Source: a virus (lineage: Duplodnaviria; Caudoviricetes). Taken from it: DNA of 64,000 nucleotides. Positions 1,775 through 43,788 of the stretch are shown here, piece after piece. Positions within the stretch are counted from its first letter, which is position 1. Every line of letters begins with the position of its first letter. Location of the stretch: the IMG/VR virus record IMGVR_UViG_3300002026_001699, positions 8,159 through 72,158 of that record. One strand, written 5' to 3'. The notes under the pieces are model-generated. The model was not told the DNA's origin. It ran no database searches and saw nothing but the letters and a program-made list of their open reading frames with translations. Made by a program: the position numbers and the translations under genes.

Positions 1775-2046
1775 GATGGGAAAAAACATTAGCAACAACC
1801 GCTACATAGAAACCATATTTAGGAAATAATATTATTAAAATAAGTTTTAGTAGATCTACAAGACCAAATAGTTCTTGGGTATTAATTGTAAATGCATGGA
1901 ATATTCCAAGTTATACTTTTAAGATATATGAAAGATTTAATGAAAAGAAATTTTTAGAAACAGCTGGAAAAATAATAATAACACACAATGCCGCAAAGCA
2001 TTGTGTGTTTAATAGGATATTTAATACCCCTTCTAGTAATCTATAA
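1771..2046 (+). pseudogene. Small 91-codon gene interrupted by an in-frame TAG (1807-1809)
   Basis: ATGA overlap with previous stop; the frame stays open after TAG to TAA 2044-2046. Confidence 0.5.
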
Positions 2047-2050
2047 AATA

Positions 2051-3208
2051 TCAAGCTTCTACTAAAACATTGAAACTTCCTACGAAATTAATAAAGTTTC
2101 CATCATTCTCAATTTTACAAGCTACAATTTGGCCCTTCTTTAATTCATATCCTTTTGGACTCTTCCAAGGCCATACATAAATAAATGGTTTAGACTTTGT
2201 TTCGTCACGCAATGTTATACGAGTATAATCTTTTTGTGTTTTTGTTCTTTTGTTTTCTATTCCTTCAACTTTTGCTACAATGAAATAACTGCCAGGCTCT
2301 TCAATCTCATAAACATAATTAACAGTCTTACCTGTACTTGCAGATATTTCTTTTCTTATTTCAACAAAAGATTGCATTTCAGTTAAAGACAAGAGACAAA
2401 ATTCTTCTTCTCTTTCTACAATTAACTTGTATGAATATATATCACCTTTATACGACTTATCCTTTCTAAGAGTTGTAAAGATATAAGAGTGAAGGTCAAA
2501 TCTATCTTGAAAACCTTGTTCAACGAAATCATCAAAAGCACCTGACCATGTCAAAGCATCAATAGCTCTCTTGTTAAGATTAGCCATTTTCTTTCCATTG
2601 TCAGTTACTCTATTGAAAAAGTCATCAATATCTTTAAATGCTCCATTTTTTCTTTCTGCTACTATTTTAAGAATAGCATTATCAGGGAGAGCTTTAATAA
2701 ATGACAAACCCCAAGAAATTGTTTTATCATCAATCAATTCAAAGTTATATCCTGAAGTATTTACATTTGGAGATGTGATATCCATTCCTCTAGCCATAAT
2801 TTCTGTTGCATAAATAGATATCTTTGTCTCACCCTTCTTTTTACTACCCTTATCGGTGTTGTTTAACAAGGCAACATTAAATTCAGGTCTATAATAAGCC
2901 TTGAGCCAATATTCTTGGAATGTCAAGAATGTATAAGAGATAGAGTGACTTTTGTTAAATGCGTAAGTAGAGAAGTTTGACATTAAATCCCACATTTCTT
3001 GAGCTTCCATTTTGCCACCAAGTCCATTTTGATCTAATGGTTTTGAAGCATTCAAGATAAACTTGTCATACAACGGCTTGAGAGATTTAATATAAGTTGG
3101 GTTATCTGAACTTAATTTTCCTAACTTTGTAATAAGTCTTCTTAATTGATTTGTTTCTGCTTTACTAAAAGCGGCAGCAAACTCTGCAATCTGCATCATT
3201 GATAACAA
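2051..3208 (-). CDS. dnaE: DNA polymerase III alpha, fragment 4 (fingers, HhH, OB fold); out of frame with its IntC
   Basis: MMQIAEFAAAFSKAETNQLRR, YAFNKSHSISY, YWLKAYYRPEF, PNVNTS, WGLSFIK; C-terminal OB fold. Confidence 0.9.
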   Translation of the reverse strand: MLSMMQIAEFAAAFSKAETNQLRRLITKLGKLSSDNPTYIKSLKPLYDKFILNASKPLDQNGLGGKMEAQEMWDLMSNFSTYAFNKSHSISYTFLTFQEYWLKAYYRPEFNVALLNNTDKGSKKKGETKISIYATEIMARGMDITSPNVNTSGYNFELIDDKTISWGLSFIKALPDNAILKIVAERKNGAFKDIDDFFNRVTDNGKKMANLNKRAIDALTWSGAFDDFVEQGFQDRFDLHSYIFTTLRKDKSYKGDIYSYKLIVEREEEFCLLSLTEMQSFVEIRKEISASTGKTVNYVYEIEEPGSYFIVAKVEGIENKRTKTQKDYTRITLRDETKSKPFIYVWPWKSPKGYELKKGQIVACKIENDGNFINFVGSFNVLVEA

Positions 3209-3318
3209 TTATGTATTACAATACCATTAGCAATAAAATTATGATTATTATTTACTTCAAGATCATAAACATTTTCAGGTGATACTTCCCTTTTACTAAC
3301 CAATCTAACTGATTGCAT
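3196..3318 (-). CDS. Split intein IntC3 (37 aa) plus extein CYQ; missed by the ORF track
   Basis: Manual translation MQSVRLVSKREVSPENVYDLEVNNNHNFIANGIVIHN-CYQ-stop: intein blocks F/G ending HN with Cys +1. Confidence 0.9.
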   Translation of the reverse strand: MQSVRLVSKREVSPENVYDLEVNNNHNFIANGIVIHNCYQ

Positions 3319-4198
3319 CTTTCAACCTTCCTTTTACATCTTCGATATTATTTTGAATATCATCTTCCCAAAAACGGATTATATTATATCCATTATTTAT
3401 TAAATATGCTTCTTTTTCTATTTCTATTTTTTTATATTCTTGAATATATTGCGACATTTCATTTAATTGATATTTTTTAGGATTAATGTGCCAATAATCC
3501 CCATCTACTTCAATAACCAAATTATTTTCTGGAATATAAAAATCATAAAAATAAAGTTGGTTTTTATTTTTTAATCTAAACTGTTTTATATAATTAACAT
3601 TAAATTCTTTTAATATATTTTCAAAATATTTTTCTAAATTAGATACATATTTTTGTCTATTGTTTTCTTGAATAAGTCTTCCAATTTTAATTTGTTTATC
3701 TTTTATAAAAACGGCATGATCAGAATTATCATGTTTATATAAAAAATGTGTTTGTAATCCAGCATTATTTTTAAATATTTTATTGCATAAAATGCATTTG
3801 AAAATATCATGACATGATGCTTTATGAGCACGTAAAGCAGTATTTGTTTCAAATATTTTATTGCAAACTACACATTTAAAATTACCATATTTTATAATAT
3901 TATCTTTTAATTTACTTTTATTATGATTTTTTTTATGTTCATCAGTCCATACTACCCCTGTAATTCTTTTAGAAACTGCAAGAGAATAACATTCTTTTTT
4001 ACCACAACTTTTTCTATATCCTATAAATGTCCCTTTATTAAAAACAGAATCTAATTTTTTACCACAAAAACATAAAGGGGCTTGATCTATTATTAATAAA
4101 ACTTGATTACATTTTTCCTTGTGTTGTTTTAATTTATTAGATGAAGATGTTTCAAAACCACATATACATTTATACATTTTTCTCCTATCAAGAACCAA
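3305..4198 (-). mobile_element. Free-standing homing endonuclease, Vsr/DUF559-like, with C2H2 zinc fingers
   Basis: YDFYIPENNLVIEVDGDYWH; CxxC...H motifs; lies between IntN3 and IntC3. Confidence 0.8.
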
Positions 4199-4230
4199 TA
4201 TAGTTATCTTATATGTTCTTGATAAATAAA

Positions 4231-4875
4231 TTAAGCAAACTTTGAAAAATCTTCATTTATTACTATTTCATCTTCATCATTAAGATTTTGAGCTTCAATC
4301 CAACCTCTATTATTGGTATAAATTTGATGATCTGGAGTGCATTTTAATATTTGACCACTAGAAAATTCTAATTCAATTAATTTTTTTATTCCATTATCAT
4401 AGTATTTATTAATATTCTGCCATTCAAAATCTAATGTATTTTCATTAAGAGTCAATACTTTAACTTCTAATTTATTATTTACAATTTCTTTGATTTCTAT
4501 TAATCCTTGAGTTGTTAATATTTTAGTATCACCGGTTATACACATAAGTCCGAATGTTGGTTTTAGAATATGATGAATAGATGGAGGGATATCTTTTTCT
4601 GACCACACAACATTATTTTCATCAGCTCTACCATTTCTATCAGAATAAATTTCAGGTATTCCCATTGATAATGTTCCAGGGCGGATAAGAGCAGATATAT
4701 CACAAAGCTCAGAGAAATTATCAGGATCTACTTGCTTACAAACTTTGCTGGCTATAGAACTATTATGTACTATTATATCATTTGCTATGAAATTATTATA
4801 TGGACTTTTCATGGCAATATCATATGTCTCTTCAATATTTAATTGAGTAATGTTTTTTATTCTTTGGTATTTCAT
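4231..4875 (-). CDS. dnaE: DnaE fragment 3: IntC2 (38 aa) + 73-aa extein + IntN3 (103 aa)
   Basis: IIVHN|SSIASK; ALIRPG; ILKPTFGLM|CITGDT; TPDH block B. Confidence 0.9.
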   Translation of the reverse strand: MKYQRIKNITQLNIEETYDIAMKSPYNNFIANDIIVHNSSIASKVCKQVDPDNFSELCDISALIRPGTLSMGIPEIYSDRNGRADENNVVWSEKDIPPSIHHILKPTFGLMCITGDTKILTTQGLIEIKEIVNNKLEVKVLTLNENTLDFEWQNINKYYDNGIKKLIELEFSSGQILKCTPDHQIYTNNRGWIEAQNLNDEDEIVINEDFSKFA

Positions 4876-4930
4876 TTAACTATTGTACTCTCCATCTATA
4901 AGATATATATAACTATGCCAAGGAGTTTAT

Positions 4931-5773
4931 ATGTTATACGAATTTTATAGTAAAACACACAATATATGGATAGATATGTCTAAATGTGGATATGCTTTAA
5001 CCAATCATGTTAGAACAAATCAATATAATAAAAATAAAAAATATTATTTTTATGAAAATGAAGTTATCACAGATAAGACAAAAATAAAATATAAATGTGA
5101 TAAATGTCAAAATATATTTGAATCAAGTTATGCTTCATATAAAAACAGAGAACATAAATTATGTTTAAAATGTATACAAAAAATAAAGAGTAATGACCCT
5201 ATAATTAAAGAAAGAAAAAGACAAGCAGTATTAAAATATGGTCCTGAAACACACAAAAAAAGATCACAATCATTAAAAAATTTAGATACAAATATTAAAC
5301 GTATAAAAGCTTTTCAAAAGACAATGAACAATTTATCAAAAGACCGAAAAGATGAAATAAAAAATAAAAAACAACAAACCTGGTTTAATAAATCTGAAAA
5401 TGAAAGGTTGTTAATAATGGAAAAACAAAGAAATTCTGGGACATTATGGACATCAATAAAAACTAAATTTGGTGAAATAAAATGTCAAGGATATGAAGAT
5501 AGAGCAGTAATTAAACTATTGGAACTTAATGTTGATAAACTGGAACGTGGTCCATCTGTAAAAATGGATAATGGACATTGGCATTATCCAGATTTATATA
5601 CAGAAAAAGATGGAAAAAAAATAATAATTGAAGTTAAATCAAATTATTTATATAAAAAATATAAAGATGATATTTTATATAAAAAATCACAAGGTATAAA
5701 AAATACATCTTGTGATTATTATTTTATTTGGATTTTTGATGATAAACAAGAAGTTGATTGTCAATGGTTATAA
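4931..5773 (+). mobile_element. Free-standing PD-(D/E)xK (TnsA-like) endonuclease, antisense to dnaE
   Basis: GYEDRA...HYPDLY...IIIEVKS; CxxC motifs; lies between IntN2 and IntC2. Confidence 0.7.
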
Positions 5774-6919
5774 TGACAATATTTCATCATTATCACTGAG
5801 ATCTTTTAATTTTTTCCATCCATTTTTTGTTAAAAACTTATGATTTTCAGAACATTTAATTTTTTTTCCATCTTCTAACTCTAGTTCAAAAATCATCTTT
5901 TTACCAGATTTTTTAATAACCAAACAATCATTTTGAATTAATTCTTTTGTTTCTTCATTATACGAAGTTAATTTTTCAGGTAATGAAGAAGTATATAACT
6001 CTTTAATTGTTTTATCACCATTAATTATTGTATCTGGATGTAAGCAATCCATTTGGAATATTCCATAATGATCTCCACCCTTAACAAGATTCTGATAAAT
6101 TGATTGATCCCCTTGCTGACTATTAATAAAGTCTAATGTTAAATCTTTTCCTCTCCTAGTTTTAATTAATTCTAGAGTATCTTGAACTACCTGTAAATTG
6201 TTTAATCCAAGAATATCAAACTTGGCGTATCCTATTTCTGATAATTCATGTCCTGAGTTTCCTTCCATCCATCCTGTAATTATATTTTTTCTTGATTGGA
6301 TGATTGCAATATTATCCATCAAGCTATGAGATGAAATAAGAACACCTGAAGCATGAGAGCCAGCTTGTCTATGTGCTCCTCGCACACCATTAATAAACCA
6401 ACGAATAGGCATTTTATCAGTATCATATTTATTGAGAAATGTTTTTAATGTTGGAACTGCTTCTTCTAATTCTTCTAGAGTTGATGTATCATTAACATCT
6501 TGAGGTATTTTTTTTGTTATAGCAAATACATCAGATGATGGGATATCACAAACACGAGCAACATCTTGAATGGCTGATTTTATTTTAAGCATACCAAATG
6601 TTCCAATGTTAGCAACTCTATCTCTACCATATTTTTCAATAATATGTTCAATTACTTTATCTCTTAATCTGGTTTGAAAGTCAGAGTCAATATCAGGATA
6701 GTCATATCTTTCCAAGTCTAAGAATCTTTCAAAAAGAAGATCATATTTAATTGGATCAACTTCAGTAATATGTAATAGATAATTGATAAGAGAACCAGCT
6801 GATGAATTATGAACTGAATAGTCATTTATAGTATAAGTATGATCAGTTTCAACTTCTAAATCATATACTTTGCCTTTGTAAAAGTATTCATTAACTGATT
6901 TTACTTCAATAAATTCCAT
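5768..6919 (-). CDS. dnaE: DnaE fragment 2 (palm): IntC1 (38 aa) + catalytic core + IntN2 (92 aa)
   Basis: SVHN|SSAGSL; LLFERFL; PDIDSDF; HASGV; KFDILGL; GIFQMD|CLHPDT. Confidence 0.93.
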   Translation of the reverse strand: MEFIEVKSVNEYFYKGKVYDLEVETDHTYTINDYSVHNSSAGSLINYLLHITEVDPIKYDLLFERFLDLERYDYPDIDSDFQTRLRDKVIEHIIEKYGRDRVANIGTFGMLKIKSAIQDVARVCDIPSSDVFAITKKIPQDVNDTSTLEELEEAVPTLKTFLNKYDTDKMPIRWFINGVRGAHRQAGSHASGVLISSHSLMDNIAIIQSRKNIITGWMEGNSGHELSEIGYAKFDILGLNNLQVVQDTLELIKTRRGKDLTLDFINSQQGDQSIYQNLVKGGDHYGIFQMDCLHPDTIINGDKTIKELYTSSLPEKLTSYNEETKELIQNDCLVIKKSGKKMIFELELEDGKKIKCSENHKFLTKNGWKKLKDLSDNDEILSL

Positions 6920-7905
6920 GTATTAATAATCTCCTCTGCTTGAATGTATTTGTCTGTTCTTCTTTTAAACTCTGTAATCTTTCCATGTTGTATCAATATA
7001 TGCTTATTCATCTCTAATAAATATATAATTTGATTTTTTATATCAAATGTGCCAATTTCTGTTAATTCATTTTCTGTTAAGATATTAAAATCATCTAAAT
7101 TATTTTCTTTAATATATTTTATTGCAGCTTCTTCTTTAACTTTAATTTCTTTTGTTGCTTGATAATTTTTCATTATCCAATTACTCTTTATTTCTATAAT
7201 TTTATTATTATAGATAAAATCTGGTCTATATCCTCGTTTTACATTATCTAAAAAATATCTTATTTCGCCTTTAAATCTTTCAAGTTTATTACCTTTTAAA
7301 TCTTGAATAAAGGCATAATACAATTCATATGTTGATTCAAATCTTAAATTACCAGAATATTTAGAATAAAAAACTCCACTTACTCCTTGAAAACCCTTAA
7401 ATTTATCAAGCATCATTTTTCTATATTCTTTATTTTGCCATAATTTTTTAGAAGCTTTACTTATTTTATCACGTTTTTCTTGTGATTTACTGTGTTTAAC
7501 AATTGAATTTCTCCAATTATCAGCCTTATCAGATTGCCAAGCTTTTTTTAATGCTTGAGAGTTTATTTCTCTTTGTCCTAATTTATTTTGTGCTATAAAC
7601 TGTGCCTTAGAGTTTTTATCTCTCCATTCTTTTGAAGAACATGTTGATTTCATTATAACAGATGGATGAATAAGTTTATTTTGAAAATATTTTCTATCTA
7701 TTAAATTAATCAAAATAGTTTCAGTATATAATCTAGATATATCACACTCACCAAAAATTATTTTTTTACTTCTTGGCCAATATTCTAAATATTTATAATA
7801 AACATCTTTTGGTATTTTTTTAATTTTATCTTTATAATATCTAATTACTTCATCTGGACAATCATCTCTAAAAAAATATTCTTTATTACTTACTTTTATA
7901 ATCAT
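6901..7905 (-). mobile_element. Free-standing PD-(D/E)xK (TnsA-like) endonuclease
   Basis: RFESTYEL...YRPDFIYNNKIIEIKS; basic NUMOD-like helical repeats; lies between IntN1 and IntC1. Confidence 0.75.
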
Positions 7906-7935
7906 AGCGTAATACCTCTTCCTGGTATTATCTTA

Positions 7936-8625
7936 CTAATTTGATGCAAGTTTTAATGGCTTATTACCAATTATTTCAAATAATTTTTGTAAAAAACTTT
8001 TTTTGCTTGGTGTTTTAATTTCTTGTTTTGCATCATCTCCAAAATTAGTTTGTTGGGTTTTTATAGTAGTCCCTGTATTATTACTAATTACTTGATTTCC
8101 ATTACCTATTTGATTTCCATTACCAATGATAGCATTACTCATAATTATCTCCATATTTGATTCGATAATACCATTCAAAAGTTTTTTACCTGTTGTAGTC
8201 AAAGGTTCAATTTTAACTTTTTGATCAGACATAAAGATGCCAACATCATCAAACGTTTTGATAGTAAAAGCATTTTTATTTAAATAGCCCCTATCAATAA
8301 AATCTTTTACTAAGTGTCCATTAAAATGAACATTACTTATTCCATTACCAGTTGTATCATTACTTTGATTGTATCGTATTTGAAATAAAAACTTAATATC
8401 TTCTTTATATATTAAAAGCTTTTCTCCTTTTTCTGTTAATGGGTGTTTTTTAATAAGCATCCCTATACTTCCATCTGTAAACCATTGTATTTTAAAACAT
8501 TCTTCTTTTAAAAATCCTTTAGATATTAAATCTTCAACTATAGATATATCACTTTCATCTATAAAATTATTCAATTTTATAGCATTAATTTTTTCTAAAA
8601 AATTAATTTTTTCTAATCCATTCAT
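7936..8625 (-). CDS. Passenger gene inside the dnaE break: two winged-helix-like repeats plus G/N/Q-rich motif
   Basis: Repeated (D/K)LI.KGFL...PLT..G.KLL unit; IIGNGNQIGNGNQVI. Confidence 0.5.
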   Translation of the reverse strand: MNGLEKINFLEKINAIKLNNFIDESDISIVEDLISKGFLKEECFKIQWFTDGSIGMLIKKHPLTEKGEKLLIYKEDIKFLFQIRYNQSNDTTGNGISNVHFNGHLVKDFIDRGYLNKNAFTIKTFDDVGIFMSDQKVKIEPLTTTGKKLLNGIIESNMEIIMSNAIIGNGNQIGNGNQVISNNTGTTIKTQQTNFGDDAKQEIKTPSKKSFLQKLFEIIGNKPLKLASN

Positions 8626-8626
8626 A

Positions 8627-10927
8627 TTATACTCCTTTAATTAAGCAATCCCCAATTTGAAGTTTTGAAGCTTCAATCCAAATTGCATTAATTATATTTT
8701 TTTCTCGTCCTTTAGGAATAACTAAAATTTTATGGTCTTTTGTACACTCTATAGAATCACCATTTTCAAGATTTACTTGAGATATTTTTTCATCAACATC
8801 ATAAATAAATTTGTTTACTACTTTATGTTTTTTACCATAAGCAGTTATAACTTCTTGATTAACTTCTATATCTTGAATATTCTTAAATGACCCATCAGAA
8901 AGTTTTACTTTTGAATTAGGAATGAAACATCCACGCCCTGCACCTACTGATGTTTCACCAAAAGTCTCTTTAGTCCATCCTATAATATCTTCCATGATCA
9001 AGAAATAATCAGTATATCCTTTTTTTACAATAACATCTAATTCAAACTTAACCCTATCAAGATATTCTTTATTGTTTTCTAATCCTCTTTCTTTTAACCC
9101 TTTCATAACTTTATCAACAATAACTTTTTTACCATTATCATAAAGTTTTGGGAGTTTGGCACTTTTATCTAACTCATATTCTTGAACACTATCAACAAGA
9201 GAAATTACAGTATGAATACCTTTCCAAAAAACCTCTTCTGTAAAGACGTCAGACTTATGCCACATTTCCCAAGCATCATGCAATTCTGATACACTTTTGT
9301 AATAAAACTCTTTGCCTTTAATAGTCCAAATTTTACCATCTGTATCTTCTTCAAGTTGTTTAAATGTTTTATCCTGATCAGAAAGCATTTGTAACTCTTG
9401 AATGCGTGATTCTGCTTTGGTGAGATAGTGAGCATCATTAGTAATAACCCATGGAATATTTAATTCCAGAGCAATCTTAATTAACTCTTCATTAATAATT
9501 TTTTGTGGTTCCCAATCAATAGCCATTAATTCAATATAATAATCTTTTCCAAATACACCATGCCACCACTTGATAACTTCTCTAGCCCTCTTTGGAGCCT
9601 CTGCAATTGCCTGTTTATCACTCTCTTCTATAAAATCAGATACATATTTGATATAATCTTCTTCTTCAAATTTGTTTTCTTGGTGAGAATAAAAATATTC
9701 AAAATCATATTGATCTAGATATTCATTTTCTGCAAGTTTATCATCATCCTTTGTTCTAAAAGATGACTTCATTGCCTTTACTTTATTTTCAATGAGGACT
9801 TTTTTATCATTAGCTCTTTTATCACTTTCAAGATAAACTCTCTCCAAGAGAATTCTATTTTGTTCTCCAGTTCCACAACCAGATAAAATAATCAATCCAT
9901 CACTATGATCTTTTATATATTCAGGATCACAAATTGGATTTTTGTAAAATCCATTTACCCAAGCATCATTATGAATTTTAACAATATTTTTAAAACCATT
10001 TAGATTTTTAGCAAACATTGTTATATGTCTTGTTTCTTTTGAGGCTATTTTTCTAATGGCTTTATTTTCAGGAGTATCATCTTTAAGAGCGTCTCTTAAT
10101 TTACCAGCCTGTCTATTTACATAAGCTTCCATTCCAAGAATTGGCTTTAAGCCATTTTCTTTTGCGCCATTATAAATAGAAATCCAATCACAAATATTTC
10201 CATGGTTAGATGTTGCTATTGCAGATTTTTGTTTTTCAACATGCCATTTTATTCTTGTATCAGGAGTTCCAATACCATCTTTAAATGAGAGGGTATTATG
10301 AACATGAAGATGAACATATTTCCAGTCAATCTTTATTTTTTCAACTTCTTGTCTTACACTTTCTAGTTCTTGGACATTGTTAAAAGAAAATATCTTTACA
10401 GTATATACAAGTTGCTTGGCATTAATTCTCAGAGGAAGATCATATGAATTAAGACCTTTAGATATTGCTATTCTAAAAGTTTTTTCAAGGAGAGATTTAG
10501 TATAATCACCAAGTGCAAAAATAATTTCTGGTTGAACAACTAGCAACTCTTTAAAGAGGAATCTTTTTATGTGTAATTTACCATCTTTAAAAAGTGGATC
10601 TTCAGTTGATGGATCTTTTGGATATTTTATACCATATGTTAAATATAAATCTTTTCTATTAAGATCTAGCGATGTGCAAATTTCTTGGACTGATTTTGAT
10701 AAATCAGGGTCTGTATAAAATTTGTCAATGTCAAATGGGGATGGGTATGGACCTAATATCATAAATGGTGATATTCTACCTTCAGGAAGAGATCTGTTTC
10801 CAGGCTGAAGAGCAAACTCACACAACTCAATATCTTTTGCTTTTTGAATATCATCAAAAATTTTGTCTAGTGTAATATCATTTTTTAATAGATTAGCTGT
10901 GATTTGTGATTCTTCATTAAATGGCAT
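8627..10927 (-). CDS. dnaE: DnaE fragment 1: UDG-like N-domain + PHP domain + IntN1 (100 aa)
   Basis: HLHVHNTLSFKDG, SNHGN, GMEAY, TNDAHY; DYFLIMEDII; GAGRG|CFIPNS; TKDH. Confidence 0.92.
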   Translation of the reverse strand: MPFNEESQITANLLKNDITLDKIFDDIQKAKDIELCEFALQPGNRSLPEGRISPFMILGPYPSPFDIDKFYTDPDLSKSVQEICTSLDLNRKDLYLTYGIKYPKDPSTEDPLFKDGKLHIKRFLFKELLVVQPEIIFALGDYTKSLLEKTFRIAISKGLNSYDLPLRINAKQLVYTVKIFSFNNVQELESVRQEVEKIKIDWKYVHLHVHNTLSFKDGIGTPDTRIKWHVEKQKSAIATSNHGNICDWISIYNGAKENGLKPILGMEAYVNRQAGKLRDALKDDTPENKAIRKIASKETRHITMFAKNLNGFKNIVKIHNDAWVNGFYKNPICDPEYIKDHSDGLIILSGCGTGEQNRILLERVYLESDKRANDKKVLIENKVKAMKSSFRTKDDDKLAENEYLDQYDFEYFYSHQENKFEEEDYIKYVSDFIEESDKQAIAEAPKRAREVIKWWHGVFGKDYYIELMAIDWEPQKIINEELIKIALELNIPWVITNDAHYLTKAESRIQELQMLSDQDKTFKQLEEDTDGKIWTIKGKEFYYKSVSELHDAWEMWHKSDVFTEEVFWKGIHTVISLVDSVQEYELDKSAKLPKLYDNGKKVIVDKVMKGLKERGLENNKEYLDRVKFELDVIVKKGYTDYFLIMEDIIGWTKETFGETSVGAGRGCFIPNSKVKLSDGSFKNIQDIEVNQEVITAYGKKHKVVNKFIYDVDEKISQVNLENGDSIECTKDHKILVIPKGREKNIINAIWIEASKLQIGDCLIKGV

Positions 10928-10991
10928 TTATACCTCTTTATTTAAACTATGCATAACTCGTATAATTATTATATCATATAATGAAGATACT

Positions 10992-11390
10992 CTAAAATGT
11001 AATATATATTTTTTTGATTTGACCAAATTTCTTTATTGACAAATAACCTATTTTTCCAGTTATCAATAACTTTTCTTGAATTTGAAAAGCCATAGAATCA
11101 CAGAATGCTAGAAATTGAACTAGCACAATATTTCCTGCAATATAAAAATCATCATCATGGAATTCACCAACTTCATGATTATTACTGCTTCTTTTAGATA
11201 ATTTAATATCATCTAAATTTTTAAAAACTCTATACATAATAGAGAGTAATAGTTTTATATCTCTAGATTTATTATTTTGAGCAATTTTTTCATATATACT
11301 TGCAAATTTAATTTGCTTTGATTTTAAAGGTGGAAGATCTTCTAACAAGAATTTCCACTTTTCAATTAATTCACTATCTTGTTCTGTCAT
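10992..11390 (-). CDS. Hypothetical protein
   Basis: 132 aa ORF in the - strand gene run. Confidence 0.55.
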   Translation of the reverse strand: MTEQDSELIEKWKFLLEDLPPLKSKQIKFASIYEKIAQNNKSRDIKLLLSIMYRVFKNLDDIKLSKRSSNNHEVGEFHDDDFYIAGNIVLVQFLAFCDSMAFQIQEKLLITGKIGYLSIKKFGQIKKIYITF

Positions 11391-40083: not shown

Positions 40084-43000
40084 TTACATACATTTTGAGA
40101 AACCACAAGTGCAACTAACACAACCTTCAACATATCTCATTTCGCCTCCACATTCAGGACAAACATCACCAGTCATTACCCTTTCACCATCTTTTATATA
40201 TTTCTTGAGAACACGAGAAACAGCTCTTTCAAATCCCATAAAATGTTTAGATTTTGACATCTGGTCAACAACAAATTGCAGAGGTGTTCCATGCCTTAAT
40301 GCCATTGAGGTCATTCTTGCCATAACACCATAAGTTGCATCCATTGTTTCAGCCAAGTTATCTTTAACAACTTTTTCAACTCCATTTCTTATAATTAAAG
40401 AATATTTTCCTTTACCATTCTTTTTTATAATACCTTCTTTATGATTATTTACATCAATCAAACCATCTTTGTTTTCATCAACGAAAATTTCATATAAAGA
40501 ACCTTGAAGTTTACCAACAAGAACCATCCATTTTTTACTATCAACAGAAATCTCATGAATATCACATGGAAGTTCATCTGGTCTTTTTGGTGCCATATGT
40601 CTTTCTATATATTCTTCTTTTTTTACTTTAGGCTCATTATATTCTAATATACCTTTCAAATTTCCAGAAGGATTAAAAGTTGTGAATCCTTTAAGTCCTT
40701 TATCATAAGCATACATAAAAAGATCTTGATATTCTTCAAGAGATGTTCCTGGAGATAAATTAGCAGTTTTACTAATTGAAGAATCAATATATTTTTGCCA
40801 TACTGCTTGTATATCAATAGATTTTTTTACATTAATTGTTGTAGTTGTTATAAAATAATCAGGATGAGCTAAATTTATTTCTTGTTCTGTAAGATTAATA
40901 TAACTTTTATTATAATGATGTTCAAGATATTTTAACCAAGCATTATCATATACAATTTGTTGTTTTGTTTCATCACCAAGTCCTGTTCTATAACTTCTTT
41001 TATAAGAAAGAGAAAACATTGGTTCTATTCCAGAACTACAATTTTGACCAATACTTAATGAAATAGTTCCAGTTGGAGCACATGTATTTATATTTATATT
41101 ACGAATACCATTTTCAAGAATTGATTTTTTAATATCATTTGGTAGTCTCTTGCAAAAACCAGATTCAATAAATTTTTCTCTATTTAAAACAGGAAATTGA
41201 CCTTTCTCTTTTGCTAATTCTATTGATGCTTTATAAGATTCGTTTCTTAGAAATTCACCTAATTTATGAGTAAGCTTTAAACTATCTTCTTCACCATAAG
41301 TTATTTTCATCATAGCTAACATATCTGCAAATCCAGTAAAACCAAGACCTATTCTTCTTTCTCCCATAGACCTATCTTTAATTTTTTCTAATGGATATTC
41401 CGTCACAGTAAGAACATTATCAAGAAATCTTACTCCAACTTTTATAGTTTTAATTAAATTTTCCCAATCAATTTTAGCATCGTCAGTAAAAGGATTTAAA
41501 ACAAATTTACTAAAGTTTATAGCACCGAGGTCACACACGGCATACTCTGGCATCGAGATTTCACCACAATTTAAAGTGTTACAGGATAACAACTTATCTC
41601 TACCTGATGCAGTTTTTGTTTGATTAAATATAATATCAAAGTTATGAACATCGTCTACTGTACCATTATAAACTGTATCAACTCCAATTTTTGTTACTGA
41701 AACAATTTTATGATTATAAATCATTCCATTTTCTATTAATTGTTTAGCTACTGTAGTTTTGCAATTATTTGTGTTTTTATTTATAGATTGAACAGAGATA
41801 GGATTTATATTAAAATTGTCAAAAATATTGCTAATAAATGTTTTATAAGAACCACTTAAGCCAGCAGTTCTAAGATCATTTATTCCATAACTATTTAAGA
41901 TATAAGAAAATTCTGCCCAAGATGGGATAATATTATTTTCATTTACATATTTAGAAAAAAGATTAAAAATCATATCTTGAGATGTTACATGACTTTCATT
42001 TGCTTTATCATGTGAAATTTTTGCCATTTTTTTATTATGTTCAAAAGCTCCACAACTCTGGGAGCAATAGGCTTGTTCTCTTCTGCCAAAACGTACAGAA
42101 AATTCATTACCGCAGTGCTCACATGTCTTTTTAACCATAACTACATTGTTTTCAACAAAACATTCAAGATCAGTTAATTTTTGACATTCTTTAAAATGTT
42201 TATTTGTTCTTTTTTCTATTCCAGTTACAAAAATATCCTTAAAATTAATCCATGCCTGTTTTGTATTAGATGACGCTTTAACTTTATATTCTAAAGTAGA
42301 ACACCTTTCTTTTGCTTTTTGACTAATTTTTGATTTTGTTTCTTGGGATCTTTTTGCGCCAATGTGATATTTTTCTCTCATTTTTTGTTGTGCTTGAGGA
42401 TCATTCCTCCAGTTTTTTTCTGGGTAACGAATCATTGGATTTTTATCACCAGAAATATCATGTATGATATCATGTTCTTCTTTTGTCATCATTTGAAGAT
42501 TATTTACAGAATTATTTGAAGGATTAAAATCTTTATGATGTATTATATATCCTTCTGGTATTTTACTCTTAGTAAGTTGTTCATAAACAAATCTATGCTC
42601 TCCTATCAGTTTTTTTCCATTAGACATTAACCAATATCCATCTTTTTCAGAATACTCATCTTCTTTTAATGTATTCCATTTAGAATAAACAGCCAGGCTT
42701 TCACCAGACTGAAGATTTATAGCCTCTTTATACATTCCATCTTTCATTCTAAATTTATGATTTCCTGTACATTTAATTGTTGATCCATCATCTAATAGGA
42801 CTTGATAAATATCTTGATCATATCCTGTAATTCGTGGGTTGCGCATTGTTTTTATAATGGGCTCTCCATTATCATCACGTGCATAAACTGGAATATCCTT
42901 TCCTTCTTCAGCAAGTTGTTTGATTGGGATAAAATTTCTTCCATCAGCAACAGCTACAAGAGTATCACCAGTAAGACATGGATTACATTGCTCAATATTA

Positions 43001-43788
43001 TACATATAATAACCATTGTTTTCTTTATTAACATGGTCAAGATTAAAAATACCTGGCTCATTATTCATGAATGCATTTTTTGTAATCTTATCATATAGGT
43101 CTTTAGCTTTAACTGTTTTATAAACTTTATCTTTAAACTTTAAATCCCAATCACCATCATTTTTTACTTGTTCAATAAAAGCATCAGTAATACCAACTGA
43201 GATGTTAAATTGCGTTAGAGCTTTATTTTTATCACCTTGTTTGATTGTTATGAACTCTTCAATATCAGGGTGGTCAACGTTCATAATTGCAATATGTGCA
43301 CCTCTTCTCCCTCCACCTGTATGGATTGTTTTAGCAGAGGCATCAAATATTTGAGTAAAAGATAGTGGTCCTGATGATTCTCCACCTTTAGAGATTGATG
43401 AATTTCTTGGTCTCATGTTAGATATATTAAATCCAACTCCTCCACCCATTTTACCAATTAGAGCGTCTTCTTTAAGGGCATCATAAATACCTTCCATTGA
43501 ATCATCTATTTTAATAGTAAAACAATTGTTATAATTCTTCATTTTACTGTCTGGTCTTGCATTGGCAAGTATTCTTCCAGCTGGTATAAATTTACCAGAA
43601 ATAAGTTGATTATAAAACTCATCCTTTACAAGATTGAATTTATCATTTGTTTCACATGATGCAATTTCTGTTGATATATCCTCGAATATTTTCTCCACAG
43701 ATTCTTGATTGTGAATATTATATTTCATTTCAAATATTTCTTTTGATATTGGTTGTTCCCATTCCCATTTTTTATTATTATCACCCAT
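40084..43788 (-). CDS. nrdJ: Class II (B12-dependent) ribonucleotide reductase with intein
   Basis: PAGRIL, NNCF, GGGVG, RRGA, NP|CGE, CDLGAIN, RRIGLG, APTGT; C-terminal TSCPD-like domain and CPECG ribbon. Confidence 0.9.
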   Translation of the reverse strand: MGDNNKKWEWEQPISKEIFEMKYNIHNQESVEKIFEDISTEIASCETNDKFNLVKDEFYNQLISGKFIPAGRILANARPDSKMKNYNNCFTIKIDDSMEGIYDALKEDALIGKMGGGVGFNISNMRPRNSSISKGGESSGPLSFTQIFDASAKTIHTGGGRRGAHIAIMNVDHPDIEEFITIKQGDKNKALTQFNISVGITDAFIEQVKNDGDWDLKFKDKVYKTVKAKDLYDKITKNAFMNNEPGIFNLDHVNKENNGYYMYNIEQCNPCLTGDTLVAVADGRNFIPIKQLAEEGKDIPVYARDDNGEPIIKTMRNPRITGYDQDIYQVLLDDGSTIKCTGNHKFRMKDGMYKEAINLQSGESLAVYSKWNTLKEDEYSEKDGYWLMSNGKKLIGEHRFVYEQLTKSKIPEGYIIHHKDFNPSNNSVNNLQMMTKEEHDIIHDISGDKNPMIRYPEKNWRNDPQAQQKMREKYHIGAKRSQETKSKISQKAKERCSTLEYKVKASSNTKQAWINFKDIFVTGIEKRTNKHFKECQKLTDLECFVENNVVMVKKTCEHCGNEFSVRFGRREQAYCSQSCGAFEHNKKMAKISHDKANESHVTSQDMIFNLFSKYVNENNIIPSWAEFSYILNSYGINDLRTAGLSGSYKTFISNIFDNFNINPISVQSINKNTNNCKTTVAKQLIENGMIYNHKIVSVTKIGVDTVYNGTVDDVHNFDIIFNQTKTASGRDKLLSCNTLNCGEISMPEYAVCDLGAINFSKFVLNPFTDDAKIDWENLIKTIKVGVRFLDNVLTVTEYPLEKIKDRSMGERRIGLGFTGFADMLAMMKITYGEEDSLKLTHKLGEFLRNESYKASIELAKEKGQFPVLNREKFIESGFCKRLPNDIKKSILENGIRNININTCAPTGTISLSIGQNCSSGIEPMFSLSYKRSYRTGLGDETKQQIVYDNAWLKYLEHHYNKSYINLTEQEINLAHPDYFITTTTINVKKSIDIQAVWQKYIDSSISKTANLSPGTSLEEYQDLFMYAYDKGLKGFTTFNPSGNLKGILEYNEPKVKKEEYIERHMAPKRPDELPCDIHEISVDSKKWMVLVGKLQGSLYEIFVDENKDGLIDVNNHKEGIIKKNGKGKYSLIIRNGVEKVVKDNLAETMDATYGVMARMTSMALRHGTPLQFVVDQMSKSKHFMGFERAVSRVLKKYIKDGERVMTGDVCPECGGEMRYVEGCVSCTCGFSKCM
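41569..42978 (-). mobile_element. Contiguous intein (470 aa) with HNH endonuclease
   Basis: CLTGDT start; HHKDFNPSNNSVNNL; ends SCNTLN before CGE. Confidence 0.9.

What the first reader, a model, noticed from the sequence alone, without database searches (positions are those of the whole stretch)
2051..10927. DnaE built from four separate genes by three split inteins
Seen: junctions GAGRG|C...HN|SSAGS, GIFQMD|C...HN|SSIAS and TFGLM|C...HN|CYQ. IntN parts are 100, 92 and 103 aa; IntC parts are 38, 38 and 37 aa. Fragment 3 contributes only a 73-aa extein between two intein halves. Known: fractured genes with split inteins and intervening endonucleases are described in phage metagenomes, usually with one break. 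Inference: the three pairs must be mutually orthogonal for ordered four-part assembly, giving a ready-made orthogonal intein set and a possible post-translational control of replication.
Basis: partly seen in the sequence, partly recalled or inferred. Interest (0 to 1): 0.8.

Follow-up and report, generated by a model that had tools for sequence, protein, structure and literature searches.

The report
Phage polymerase gene split by inteins
An uncultured phage encodes its DNA polymerase in pieces that split inteins (self-splicing protein elements) must stitch together; two breaks are fixed, but the third is a recent, still-polymorphic insertion of a mobile nuclease element that left the last piece out of frame.

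Summary
Three split inteins break this phage's only detected dnaE: IntN 100/92/103 aa, IntC 38/38/37 aa, and a 73-aa middle extein. All splicing motifs are present, and the pieces tile an unsplit 1384-aa homolog exactly at the predicted junctions.

IntC3 reads HN|CYQ, then a TGA stop. The remaining 382 aa lie in the -1 frame behind an ATGA overlap and have no ribosome-binding site.

Two near-identical assemblies of the same phage explain this. L018 has no intein at site c and reads TFGLM-VYQEE-MMQIAEF. L017 ends exactly at that site. The site-c intein plus its zinc-finger/DUF559 endonuclease is therefore a recent presence/absence polymorphism, and the filled allele lacks 7 nt that the empty allele has. 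Relatives with a filled site c read CYQEQMM in frame.

Across the clade, dnaE carries zero to at least three split inteins at six sites.

This is the known "fractured gene" arrangement (Dassa et al. 2009, which included DnaE), with more breaks than published. This scan has already noted a two-split-intein dnaE on other DNA. Orthogonality is plausible but is the default for divergent inteins. Nothing supports control of replication.

The parts
8930..10927 (-). dnaE extein 1 (666 aa): N-terminal UDG-like region, PHP domain and start of the pol III alpha domain; ends GAGRG
   Evidence: Pfam PHP 2.3e-30, DNA_pol3_alpha 3.7e-10, weak UDG 0.0044. Aligns to P0133 residues 1-667 at 53% identity. Own Shine-Dalgarno AGAGG.
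8630..8929 (-). IntN1 (100 aa), site a: Cys1, block B TKDH
   Evidence: Pfam Hint 1.1e-07, 32.1 bits against a 29.7 cut-off. Sequence. No solved relative by sequence.
7936..8625 (-). 229-aa ORF of unknown function in gap 1
   Evidence: No Pfam match, one weak PHROG match. Own Shine-Dalgarno AGGAG. L009 has a 167-aa ORF at the same position; I did not compare the two.
6901..7905 (-). 334-aa ORF in gap 1, putative PD-(D/E)xK (TnsA-like) nuclease
   Evidence: Shares a PDF...EIK motif with ORF280 (BLASTP E 0.005). Atlas leads are TnsA-like N domain, NUMOD3 and DUF7487. 63% identical homolog at the same place in L009. phrog_33911 1.7e-11, function unknown. The fold model failed.
6806..6919 (-). IntC1 (38 aa), ends HN, followed by +1 Ser (SSAGS)
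   Evidence: Conserved in P0014, P0018, P0022 and P0024.
6047..6805 (-). dnaE extein 2 (253 aa): rest of the pol III alpha domain including PDIDSDF, start of the fingers; ends GIFQMD
   Evidence: Pfam DNA_pol3_alpha 1.9e-51. Fragment-2 residues 44-298 align to P0133 residues 681-942.
5771..6046 (-). IntN2 (92 aa), site b: Cys1, block B SENH
   Evidence: Pfam Intein_splicing 2.3e-12. Nearest solved relatives are DnaB mini-inteins (1.6e-08) and gp41-1 (3.2e-05).
4931..5773 (+). 280-aa ORF in gap 2 on the opposite strand: Cys4 zinc ribbon plus a C-terminal PD-(D/E)xK-like domain
   Evidence: Weak ZZ / Zn-ribbon match. Model residues 150-270 have pLDDT 70-79. Best fold matches have Z of only 5.6 or less, but PD-(D/E)xK nucleases (Bax1, AF1548, TnsA, R2 endonuclease, I-Bth0305I, Vsr, Hjc) are the commonest kind on the list. 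68% identical homolog at the same place and strand in L003.
4762..4875 (-). IntC2 (38 aa), ends HN, followed by +1 Ser (SSIAS)
   Evidence: dN/dS 0.24 against L003.
4543..4761 (-). dnaE extein 3 (73 aa), fingers; ends TFGLM. Carries a private in-frame 3-nt deletion at 4634.
   Evidence: Pfam DNA_pol3_finger 1.2e-07. Maps to E. coli Pol III alpha residues 618-685. Contig L017 ends at 4543. L017 and L018 both have GTT at 4634 where the window does not.
3200..4542 (-). Inserted site-c element, absent from the near-identical contig L018: IntN3, endonuclease ORF, IntC3 and 8 nt TGTTATCA. It replaces 15 nt (GTATATCAAGAGGAG, encoding VYQEE) of the empty allele.
   Evidence: blastn of L018 against the window: L018 1-3490 matches 8024-4537 and L018 3501-4221 matches 3199-2479 at 100%. 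L018 translation is; alignment A4 is.
4234..4542 (-). IntN3 (103 aa), site c: Cys1, block B TPDH
   Evidence: Pfam Intein_splicing 1e-15. Nearest solved relative is the NrdJ-1 split intein, 1e-16. dN/dS 0.31.
3305..4177 (-). Free-standing endonuclease of gap 3 (290 aa from ATG 4177; the listed TTG at 4198 is probably not the start): C2H2 zinc fingers plus a DUF559 / Vsr-type nuclease domain
   Evidence: Pfam DUF559 1.5e-08, 34.9 bits against a 20.6 cut-off, plus C2H2 families. PHROG homing-endonuclease families 1.9e-17 and 2.6e-09. AGGAG lies before ATG 4177. Homologs sit at the same place in L003 and L011.
3208..3318 (-). IntC3 (37 aa), ends HN; own Shine-Dalgarno AGGAAGG
   Evidence: dN/dS 0.19.
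3196..3207 (-). Broken junction: Cys-Tyr-Gln then TGA. ATGA at 3199-3196 overlaps the stop with the ATG of the next piece. 7 nt are missing here.
   Evidence: Alignment A1 against L003 shows CAAGAACAAATG reduced to CAATG. The empty allele L018 has CAAGAGGAGATG. This is the only frame switch among the window genes I could compare with relatives.
2051..3199 (-). dnaE C-terminal piece (382 aa, MMQIAEF...): rest of the fingers and HhH, out of frame with IntC3, no Shine-Dalgarno
   Evidence: Pfam HHH_6 4.5e-18. Aligns to P0133 residues 1005-1373. No Shine-Dalgarno. dN/dS 0.16 against L003. Positions 3199-2479 are 100% identical to L018.
1980..2009 (-). Intrinsic-terminator-like hairpin (13-bp stem plus T run) closing the dnaE cluster

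Best explanation
This is the only dnaE (Pol III alpha-type polymerase) found on the contig of an uncultured, AT-rich, probably large phage. It is organised as a multiply 'fractured gene'.

Three unrelated class-1 split inteins sit at three sites:
- site a, after GAGRG
- site b, after GIFQMD
- site c, after TFGLM

Each gap holds one or two free-standing ORFs, of which one per gap is nuclease-type. Fragments 1, 2 and 3 and the IntC3 ORF each have their own ribosome-binding site. Inferred mechanism: cognate IntN and IntC halves pair, and protein trans-splicing joins the exteins.

Sites a and b are settled parts of this phage. They appear in three assemblies, are conserved in relatives, and are under purifying selection. 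Site c is a very recent insertion of an intein-plus-endonuclease element (C2H2 zinc fingers and DUF559) into a previously uninterrupted site. Empty and filled alleles coexist in otherwise 99.9-100% identical DNA.

In the filled allele sequenced here, 7 nt just after the Cys-Tyr-Gln codons are missing. Splicing can therefore only yield a 995-aa product ending in CYQ. The last 382 aa would have to be made separately, if at all, by re-initiation at the ATGA overlap.

I think the 7-nt loss is more likely real, a scar of imprecise repair during the invasion (about 0.6-0.65), than an assembly error. The configuration I expect to be functional in this population is three genes joined by two split inteins.
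For: Shown:
- Junctions, lengths and motifs (Cys1, TxxH/SxxH, terminal HN, +1 Ser/Ser/Cys).
- HINT and intein Pfam hits.
- The pieces tile unsplit P0133 at exactly these residues.
- No intron-like RNA in the region.
- Separate Shine-Dalgarno sequences for each intein-bearing ORF, none for the last piece.
- dN/dS of intein halves 0.19-0.31, of exteins 0.16-0.18.
- L003 has the same layout at sites b and c with an intact HN|CYQEQMM junction. L011 has the same intact junction.
- L018 has an empty site c reading TFGLM-VYQEE-MMQIAEF, with flanks 99.9-100% identical to the window.
- L017 is 99.95% identical over 12.4 kb and ends at window 4543, the last base before IntN3.
- The only frame switch in the window genes I could compare is this junction.
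- Two private small deletions (3 nt at 4634 and the 7 nt) flank the insertion, against only 3 SNPs in the other 12 kb.
- The gap-3 ORF is a DUF559 / homing-endonuclease-type protein.

Inferred:
- That trans-splicing actually occurs.
- That the deletion arose during invasion.
- That the nuclease-type gap ORFs act as homing endonucleases.
Against: - No read-level data. The filled allele's proteins occur only on this one 72-kb contig, so the 7-nt gap has no independent confirmation.
- Consensus errors tend to cluster near polymorphic branch points, which could also explain the two small deletions.
- An assembled, presumably abundant, genotype with a broken essential polymerase is unexpected.
- The C-terminal piece shows no decay (dN/dS 0.16). 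That fits a very recent lesion but fits an artefact equally well.
- The nuclease nature of the gap-1 and gap-2 ORFs rests on weak evidence (Z of 5.6 or less, atlas leads, a short motif).
- The donor of the site-c element is unknown. Its parts are only about 65-68% identical to L003's.
Confidence: 0.75

Rival explanations
1. The filled allele really encodes four in-frame pieces, and three orthogonal trans-splicing reactions give a complete DnaE of about 1380 aa. The 7-nt gap is a sequencing, consensus or merging error in this contig.
For: - Relatives with a filled site c (L003, L011) are in frame.
- The C-terminal piece is under purifying selection and is 100% identical to L018.
- A dominant genotype with a broken replicase is unlikely a priori.
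- The two private indels lie next to an assembly-graph branch point.
Against: - A 7-nt deletion is not a typical sequencing error.
- Stitching an intact filled allele to the empty allele through shared k-mers cannot create the observed junction, because the sequence spanning the gap occurs in neither.
- Across roughly 12 kb shared with other assemblies, the contig shows only 3 SNPs and no other frame break.
Confidence: 0.33
2. The lesion is real and tolerated. The polymerase works as two polypeptides: a 995-aa spliced N-part ending in CYQ, and a 382-aa C-part made by termination-reinitiation at ATGA, held together non-covalently within the fingers domain.
For: - The ATGA stop/start overlap sits exactly at the break.
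- The C-terminal ORF is intact and followed by a terminator.
- Earlier scan notes (unchecked) describe phage DnaE enzymes built from non-covalent pieces.
Against: - No ribosome-binding site precedes the C-part.
- Two residues of the conserved Y-Q-E-Q/E motif are lost. Every relative inspected keeps that motif's length.
- I found no relative with a non-intein break at this position.
- The cut falls inside the fingers, at about residue 685 in E. coli numbering.
Confidence: 0.2
3. The lesion is real and inactivating. The filled allele is a defective by-product of endonuclease-driven invasion. It persists only transiently, or through co-infection with phages carrying the empty allele and the super-Mendelian drive of the endonuclease.
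For: - Empty and filled alleles coexist in near-identical backgrounds.
- The lesion lies exactly at the insertion boundary, and a second private deletion lies 91 nt from the element's other boundary.
- The endonuclease ORF is intact.
Against: - The filled allele assembled into a 72-kb contig, which suggests it is not rare.
- There is no direct evidence for drive or complementation.
Confidence: 0.3
4. The pieces are joined at the RNA or decoding level (group I/II intron splicing, TGA recoding or programmed frameshifting) rather than by protein splicing.
For: None found.
Against: - No intron family at E up to 1 in 9.4 kb on both strands.
- Complete in-frame intein halves flank every break.
- Reading through the TGA gives non-DnaE sequence and another stop 17 codons later.
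- There is no slippery heptamer at TAT CAA TGA, and a Gln-tRNA cannot re-pair in the -1 frame (my inference).
Confidence: 0.02

Closest known systems
Fractured genes of Dassa, London, Stoddard, Schueler-Furman and Pietrokovski 2009 (PMC2677866), including their three DnaE loci
   Same: - A conserved replication enzyme of phage origin is broken by a split intein, with a free-standing endonuclease gene between the halves.
- A Vsr-related (DUF559-type) endonuclease occupies one gap.
- DnaE is one of their eight host enzymes. Its integration points differed between loci and from the cyanobacterial site, and their DnaE-1 locus carried part of a second intein.
   Different: - Their loci are 'fractured in two' with all ORFs on one strand.
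- Here one gene has three breaks. Gap 1 has two ORFs and the gap-2 ORF is on the opposite strand.
- Here the empty and filled alleles of one site are both seen in the same phage.
- Their exact DnaE sites could not be compared, because no supplement is held.
Cyanobacterial split DnaE intein (Ssp / Npu DnaE)
   Same: Pol III alpha is made from separate genes and joined by trans-splicing of a class-1 split intein. Solved DnaE inteins are weak sequence matches of IntN3 and IntN2.
   Different: - It has a single break at a different site, before CFNKSH (from memory). The clade's site d (GFNK|C...N|SHS) lies three residues away, and the window has no intein there.
- The halves usually lie at distant loci with no endonuclease gene between them.
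NrdJ-1 and gp41-1 natural split inteins (from fractured genes)
   Same: NrdJ-1 is the closest solved relative of IntN3 (1e-16). gp41-1 is a weaker match of IntN2 (3.2e-05). IntN and IntC sizes are similar.
   Different: They have different host proteins and insertion sites. Splicing kinetics and specificity of the present inteins are untested.
Engineered tandem trans-splicing with orthogonal split inteins (for example Pinto et al. 2020, PMC7090010)
   Same: A protein is assembled from three or more pieces by several non-cross-reacting split inteins.
   Different: Those systems are laboratory constructs. Here the arrangement is natural, and in this allele it is incomplete. That work already offers 15 mutually orthogonal pairs.
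I-Bth0305I / Vsr-like homing endonuclease family (PMC3239194)
   Same: The gap-3 ORF has a DUF559 nuclease domain of the Vsr / PD-(D/E)xK type and sits in a split-intein gap, as half of Dassa's loci do.
   Different: - phmmer finds no direct sequence match to I-Bth0305I or Vsr among solved structures.
- The DNA-binding part here consists of C2H2 zinc fingers.
- Cleavage activity and target are untested.

Membership tests
Fractured gene (split intein plus free-standing endonuclease within a conserved enzyme gene) | The pieces together make one conserved enzyme with no missing or duplicated segment | tested here: met
   Fragments map in order to P0133 residues 1-667, 681-942, 903-1000 and 1005-1373. 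P0133 reads GAGRG-S, FE-S and YGLL-IYQEQ at the three junctions.
Fractured gene (split intein plus free-standing endonuclease within a conserved enzyme gene) | The N-side piece continues in frame into an IntN with a Cys/Ser1 nucleophile and a block B (T/S)xxH | tested here: met
   All three IntN parts start with Cys and carry TKDH, SENH and TPDH respectively. Pfam Hint or Intein_splicing hits.
Fractured gene (split intein plus free-standing endonuclease within a conserved enzyme gene) | The C-side piece starts with an IntC ending HN, followed in frame by a +1 Ser/Thr/Cys and the rest of the enzyme | tested here: inconclusive
   Met at sites a and b (HN|SSAGS and HN|SSIAS continue into DnaE). 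At site c, HN|CYQ is followed by TGA and the enzyme continues in the -1 frame. Whether the 7-nt gap is real cannot be settled without reads.
Fractured gene (split intein plus free-standing endonuclease within a conserved enzyme gene) | A free-standing endonuclease gene lies between the intein halves | tested here: inconclusive
   Gap 3 meets it (DUF559 1.5e-08, PHROG homing endonucleases). Gaps 1 and 2 have only weak support for a PD-(D/E)xK fold, and the ORF334 model failed.
Fractured gene (split intein plus free-standing endonuclease within a conserved enzyme gene) | All coding regions lie on the same strand (as described in 2009) | tested here: not met
   The gap-2 ORF (4931-5773) is on the plus strand, opposite to dnaE, and the same is true in L003. 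This is a layout variation and does not bear on the mechanism.
Fractured gene (split intein plus free-standing endonuclease within a conserved enzyme gene) | The halves trans-splice to give the ligated enzyme | not testable with these tools
   Needs co-expression and mass spectrometry of junction peptides.
Bacterial-type DNA polymerase III alpha (DnaE, family C) | PHP, pol III alpha catalytic, fingers and HhH domains in order | tested here: met
   PF02811, PF07733, PF17657 and PF14579 are spread over the four extein-bearing ORFs. This is the only dnaE on the 72-kb record.
Vsr-like homing endonucleases (I-Bth0305I family) | Vsr-type catalytic core detectable by sequence | tested here: inconclusive
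   The Pfam DUF559 hit is above its cut-off. phmmer against solved structures finds only C2H2 fingers, not I-Bth0305I or Vsr.
Group I / group II intron-interrupted gene | Intron RNA structure in the gaps | tested here: not met
   No intron family at E up to 1 in 1800-11200 on both strands.

The most novel reading that the evidence does not exclude
The filled site-c allele is a genuine natural snapshot of a split-intein and homing-endonuclease element invading an empty site in a phage replicase gene. The repair was imprecise, so it removed 7 nt and turned a splice junction into a true gene break. That would show directly how selfish elements create gene fragmentation, and how a driven allele can spread despite damaging an essential gene or forcing it into a non-covalent two-subunit form. 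The clade's six insertion sites would then be a natural source of co-adapted, mutually compatible split inteins, including an S11-like intein with an IntC of only 13-20 aa.
Probability: 0.35. Interest if true: 0.7.

Novelty: new variant of a known kind. Interest (0 to 1): 0.55.

Why it matters
For intein and homing-endonuclease biology:
- A single essential gene can carry several independent split inteins. This phage has three, a relative has at least three, and the clade uses six sites.
- The empty and filled states of one site are seen in otherwise identical phage genomes, with a damaged junction in the filled one. That makes it possible to test how 'fractured genes' arise and what they cost.

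For protein engineering:
- The locus offers three co-resident natural split inteins with Ser, Ser and Cys at +1. This adds little, because many orthogonal pairs already exist.

For the scan:
- A plausible 'four-part assembly' read from sequence alone hid a frame break. It also hid the fact that the third break is not fixed in this phage.

Tried and rejected
- TGA recoding: read-through gives non-DnaE sequence and a further stop.
- Programmed frameshift: no slippery site.
- RNA splicing: no Rfam intron.
- General assembly sloppiness: no other frame switch in the genes shared with relatives.
- Closer relatives or an independent assembly of the damaged junction:
  - Fragment 4 in viral contigs found nothing.
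  - Fragment 3 in the JGI metagenomes found nothing, and in viral contigs only distant hits.
  - A degenerate DNA pattern for the end of IntC3 found nothing in either collection.
  - Exact-protein look-ups of the site-c endonuclease, fragment 3 and the C-piece found only the 72-kb contig.
- P0002 looked like a free-standing C-piece but is cut by its contig edge.
- Structure of ORF334: model pLDDT 34, unusable.
- tblastn of ORF334 and ORF280 against cultured phages: no match.
- phmmer of ORF334 and ORF280 against solved structures: nothing meaningful.
- Foldseek on the ORF280 model: no hit at E of 0.001 or better.
- Comparison with Dassa's exact DnaE sites: no supplement is held.
- A natural non-intein subunit boundary at YQEQ in relatives: none seen.
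- The promoter scan is uninformative in this AT-rich DNA: 60 found against 71 expected.

Full report
**What is there**

The window is part of a 72-kb IMG/VR viral record (estimated 48% complete, about 26% G+C). Most genes run on the minus strand. Between 10927 and 2051 on that strand lie, in order:
- a 766-aa ORF (fragment 1)
- ORFs of 229 and 334 aa
- a 383-aa ORF (fragment 2)
- a 280-aa ORF on the plus strand
- a 214-aa ORF (fragment 3)
- a 297-aa ORF
- a 385-aa ORF (fragment 4)

Pfam places PHP and the start of DNA_pol3_alpha in the first ORF, the rest of DNA_pol3_alpha in the 383-aa ORF, DNA_pol3_finger in the 214-aa ORF and HHH_6 in the last. Hint or Intein_splicing hits sit at every broken end. 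This is the only dnaE on the record.

**Check of the observation**

| Part | Length |
|---|---|
| IntN1 / IntN2 / IntN3 | 100 / 92 / 103 aa |
| IntC1 / IntC2 / IntC3 | 38 / 38 / 37 aa |
| Exteins 1 / 2 / 3 | 666 / 253 / 73 aa |

- Each IntN starts with Cys and has a block-B (T/S)xxH. Each IntC ends HN and is followed by Ser, Ser and Cys respectively.
- An unsplit 1384-aa homolog (P0133, 54% identical) is covered by the pieces in order. It reads GAGRG-SAAGG, FE-SNLAS and YGLL-IYQEQ at the three sites.
- The three inteins are only 23-35% identical to one another.
- IntN3's closest solved relative is the NrdJ-1 split intein (1e-16). IntN2's are DnaB mini-inteins and gp41-1. IntN1 has none.
- Fragments 1-3 and the IntC3 ORF each have their own Shine-Dalgarno sequence.
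- A strong terminator-like hairpin follows the last piece.
- Rfam finds no intron anywhere in the region.

HN|CYQ is not part of the 385-aa ORF.
- It ends a separate 40-codon ORF (3196-3318) that stops at TGA right after Cys-Tyr-Gln.
- The remaining DnaE sequence (MMQIAEF..., 382 aa) is in the -1 frame. Its ATG overlaps the stop as ATGA, and no Shine-Dalgarno precedes it.
- Reading through the TGA gives unrelated sequence and another stop. There is no slippery site.
- As sequenced, the locus is five ORFs and splicing can only produce a 995-aa protein ending in CYQ.
- An earlier first-stage note (e1-5899797) flagged the same break. I confirmed it independently.

**Relatives**

| Locus or protein | Source | Split-intein sites | Key point |
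|---|---|---|---|
| L003 | Logan, about 70% aa identity | b, c | Same gap ORFs, including the opposite-strand one; third junction in frame as HN|CYQEQMMRIAEF |
| L011 | Logan | e, c, d (at least three) | Also in frame at site c |
| P0014, P0015 | Logan | a, b | Same fragment-2 architecture at 83% identity |
| L009 | Logan | a, d | Same upstream synteny |
| L014 | JGI | e, d | |
| L005 | JGI | b, d | |
| L006 | Logan | b, d | N-terminal dnaE pieces are not adjacent |
| P0022 | NCBI | a, c | |
| P0024 | Logan | a, f | |
| L012, L013 | ENA | none | |

- The DNA alignment against L003 shows the window lacks exactly 7 nt at the third junction.
- The clade therefore carries zero to at least three split inteins per dnaE, at six distinct sites.
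- Between the window and L003, the intein halves have dN/dS of 0.19-0.31 and the exteins 0.16-0.18. This is consistent with the inteins being needed.

**The decisive comparison**

The exact fragment-2 protein occurs on two further contigs.
- L017 (Logan SRR931707) is 99.95% identical to the window over 12.4 kb. It ends at window 4543, the last extein base before the IntN3 Cys codon.
- L018 (JGI 3300000939) matches window 8024-4537 with no mismatches and window 3199-2479 at 100%, but has nothing corresponding to 4542-3200. Its dnaE reads straight through as TFGLM-VYQEE-MMQIAEFAAAF.
- The site-c element (IntN3, the C2H2/DUF559 endonuclease ORF and IntC3) is therefore a presence/absence polymorphism in one phage population. 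Given the identical flanks, it is a very recent insertion.
- The empty allele has Val at +1, like other uninvaded relatives, so I take it as ancestral.
- The element plus 8 nt (TGTTATCA) replaces 15 nt (GTATATCAAGAGGAG). That is a net loss of 7 nt (GAGGAGA).
- The window also has a private in-frame 3-nt deletion 91 nt upstream of the insertion. The other 12 kb differ from L017 by three SNPs.
- Among the window genes I could compare with relatives, this junction is the only frame switch.

**Interpretation**

The anatomy, and the existence of empty and filled alleles, are shown.

That sites a and b are spliced by their cognate intein halves is inferred from intact motifs, conservation and selection.

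I judge the 7-nt loss more likely real (about 0.6-0.65) than an artefact:
- It sits exactly at the insertion boundary.
- It is paired with a second private deletion nearby.
- It cannot arise by stitching intact alleles through shared k-mers.

No independent assembly or read data confirm it, however. If it is real, the allele is either tolerated as a two-polypeptide enzyme made through the ATGA overlap, or it is a defective product of endonuclease-driven invasion. I cannot separate these. The missing Shine-Dalgarno, the loss of two residues from a length-invariant Y-Q-E-Q/E motif, and the position inside the fingers (about residue 685 in E. coli numbering) argue against a long-adapted fifth gene.

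**Gap ORFs**

- The gap-3 ORF is a C2H2 zinc-finger plus DUF559 protein with homing-endonuclease PHROG hits. Its likely start is ATG 4177.
- ORF334 and ORF280 share a PD...E(I/V)K motif.
- The atlas points to TnsA-like, NUMOD3 and DUF7487 phage proteins for ORF334.
- ORF280's moderately confident C-terminal model gives only weak matches (Z of 5.6 or less), although PD-(D/E)xK nucleases are the commonest kind among them.
- ORF229 remains unknown.

**Comparison with what is known**

- This is the fractured-gene arrangement of Dassa et al. 2009. That work already included three DnaE loci with different integration points, Vsr-like endonucleases, and a hint of a second intein in DnaE-1, but described genes 'fractured in two'.
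- I found no paper describing a natural gene that needs several trans-splicing events. Every hit for multiple split inteins was an engineering study. The library is not exhaustive.
- This scan has already reported a dnaE with two split inteins on other DNA (e1-5887381), and many single-break cases.
- Orthogonality of unrelated split inteins is the norm: 15 of 16 in PMC7090010.
- No evidence bears on regulation of replication.

**Verdict**

I class this as a new variant of a known kind. Its most interesting aspect, the polymorphic and imprecisely inserted third element, was not part of the original finding.

Noticed in passing
L014:7500-8210 and L014:10001-11449; also P0016, P0017, P0019, P0025, P0026, P0027: Relatives carry a split intein at a further site (PDID|...HN|TDF, inside the catalytic PDxD motif). 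It is split atypically. IntN is about 145 aa and includes a block-F-like strand. IntC is only 13-20 aa (block G, NFTLCSHN). A DUF7487 ORF lies between them. According to a 2025 review, the known natural atypical splits have a short IntN (AceL-TerL), while C-proximal 'S11' splits are synthetic.
   Followed up: partly
window 40084-43788 (-): A 1234-aa ribonucleotide reductase carries a contiguous intein with an HNH endonuclease domain, inserted at the NPC|GEI catalytic motif. The same phage therefore also has a non-split intein. Its N-part resembles the IntN of the relatives' site d.
   Followed up: partly
window 10322-10927 (-): About 200 aa ahead of the PHP domain give a weak UDG-superfamily hit (E 0.0044, below the cut-off). 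The L014 homolog has a recorded PF03167 hit. P0133 and P0134 also carry the region, while L009's fragment 1 lacks it.
   Followed up: partly
window 7936-8625 (-): A 229-aa ORF with no family match sits in gap 1 next to the putative nuclease ORF. L009 has a 167-aa ORF in the same position, which I did not compare with it. It looks like a passenger gene in a split-intein gap.
   Followed up: no
L006:1-4700 (also L007, L008): In this relative the dnaE piece that starts with IntC of site b is preceded by unrelated small genes (Phage_VG64 and a 161-aa ORF). The N-terminal dnaE pieces must be encoded elsewhere, a dispersed rather than clustered arrangement.
   Followed up: no
window 4634: A private in-frame 3-nt deletion (RKFG becomes RNG) in extein 3, 91 nt upstream of the site-c insertion. 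It is absent from both near-identical assemblies L017 and L018.
   Followed up: yes
P0033 (protein found): A 444-aa DnaE fragment with an IntC-like start (HN|CGGSLV), labelled as an Acinetobacter brisouii hypothetical protein on an 87-kb contig. Fractured dnaE may also occur in a cultured bacterium's prophage or plasmid.
   Followed up: no
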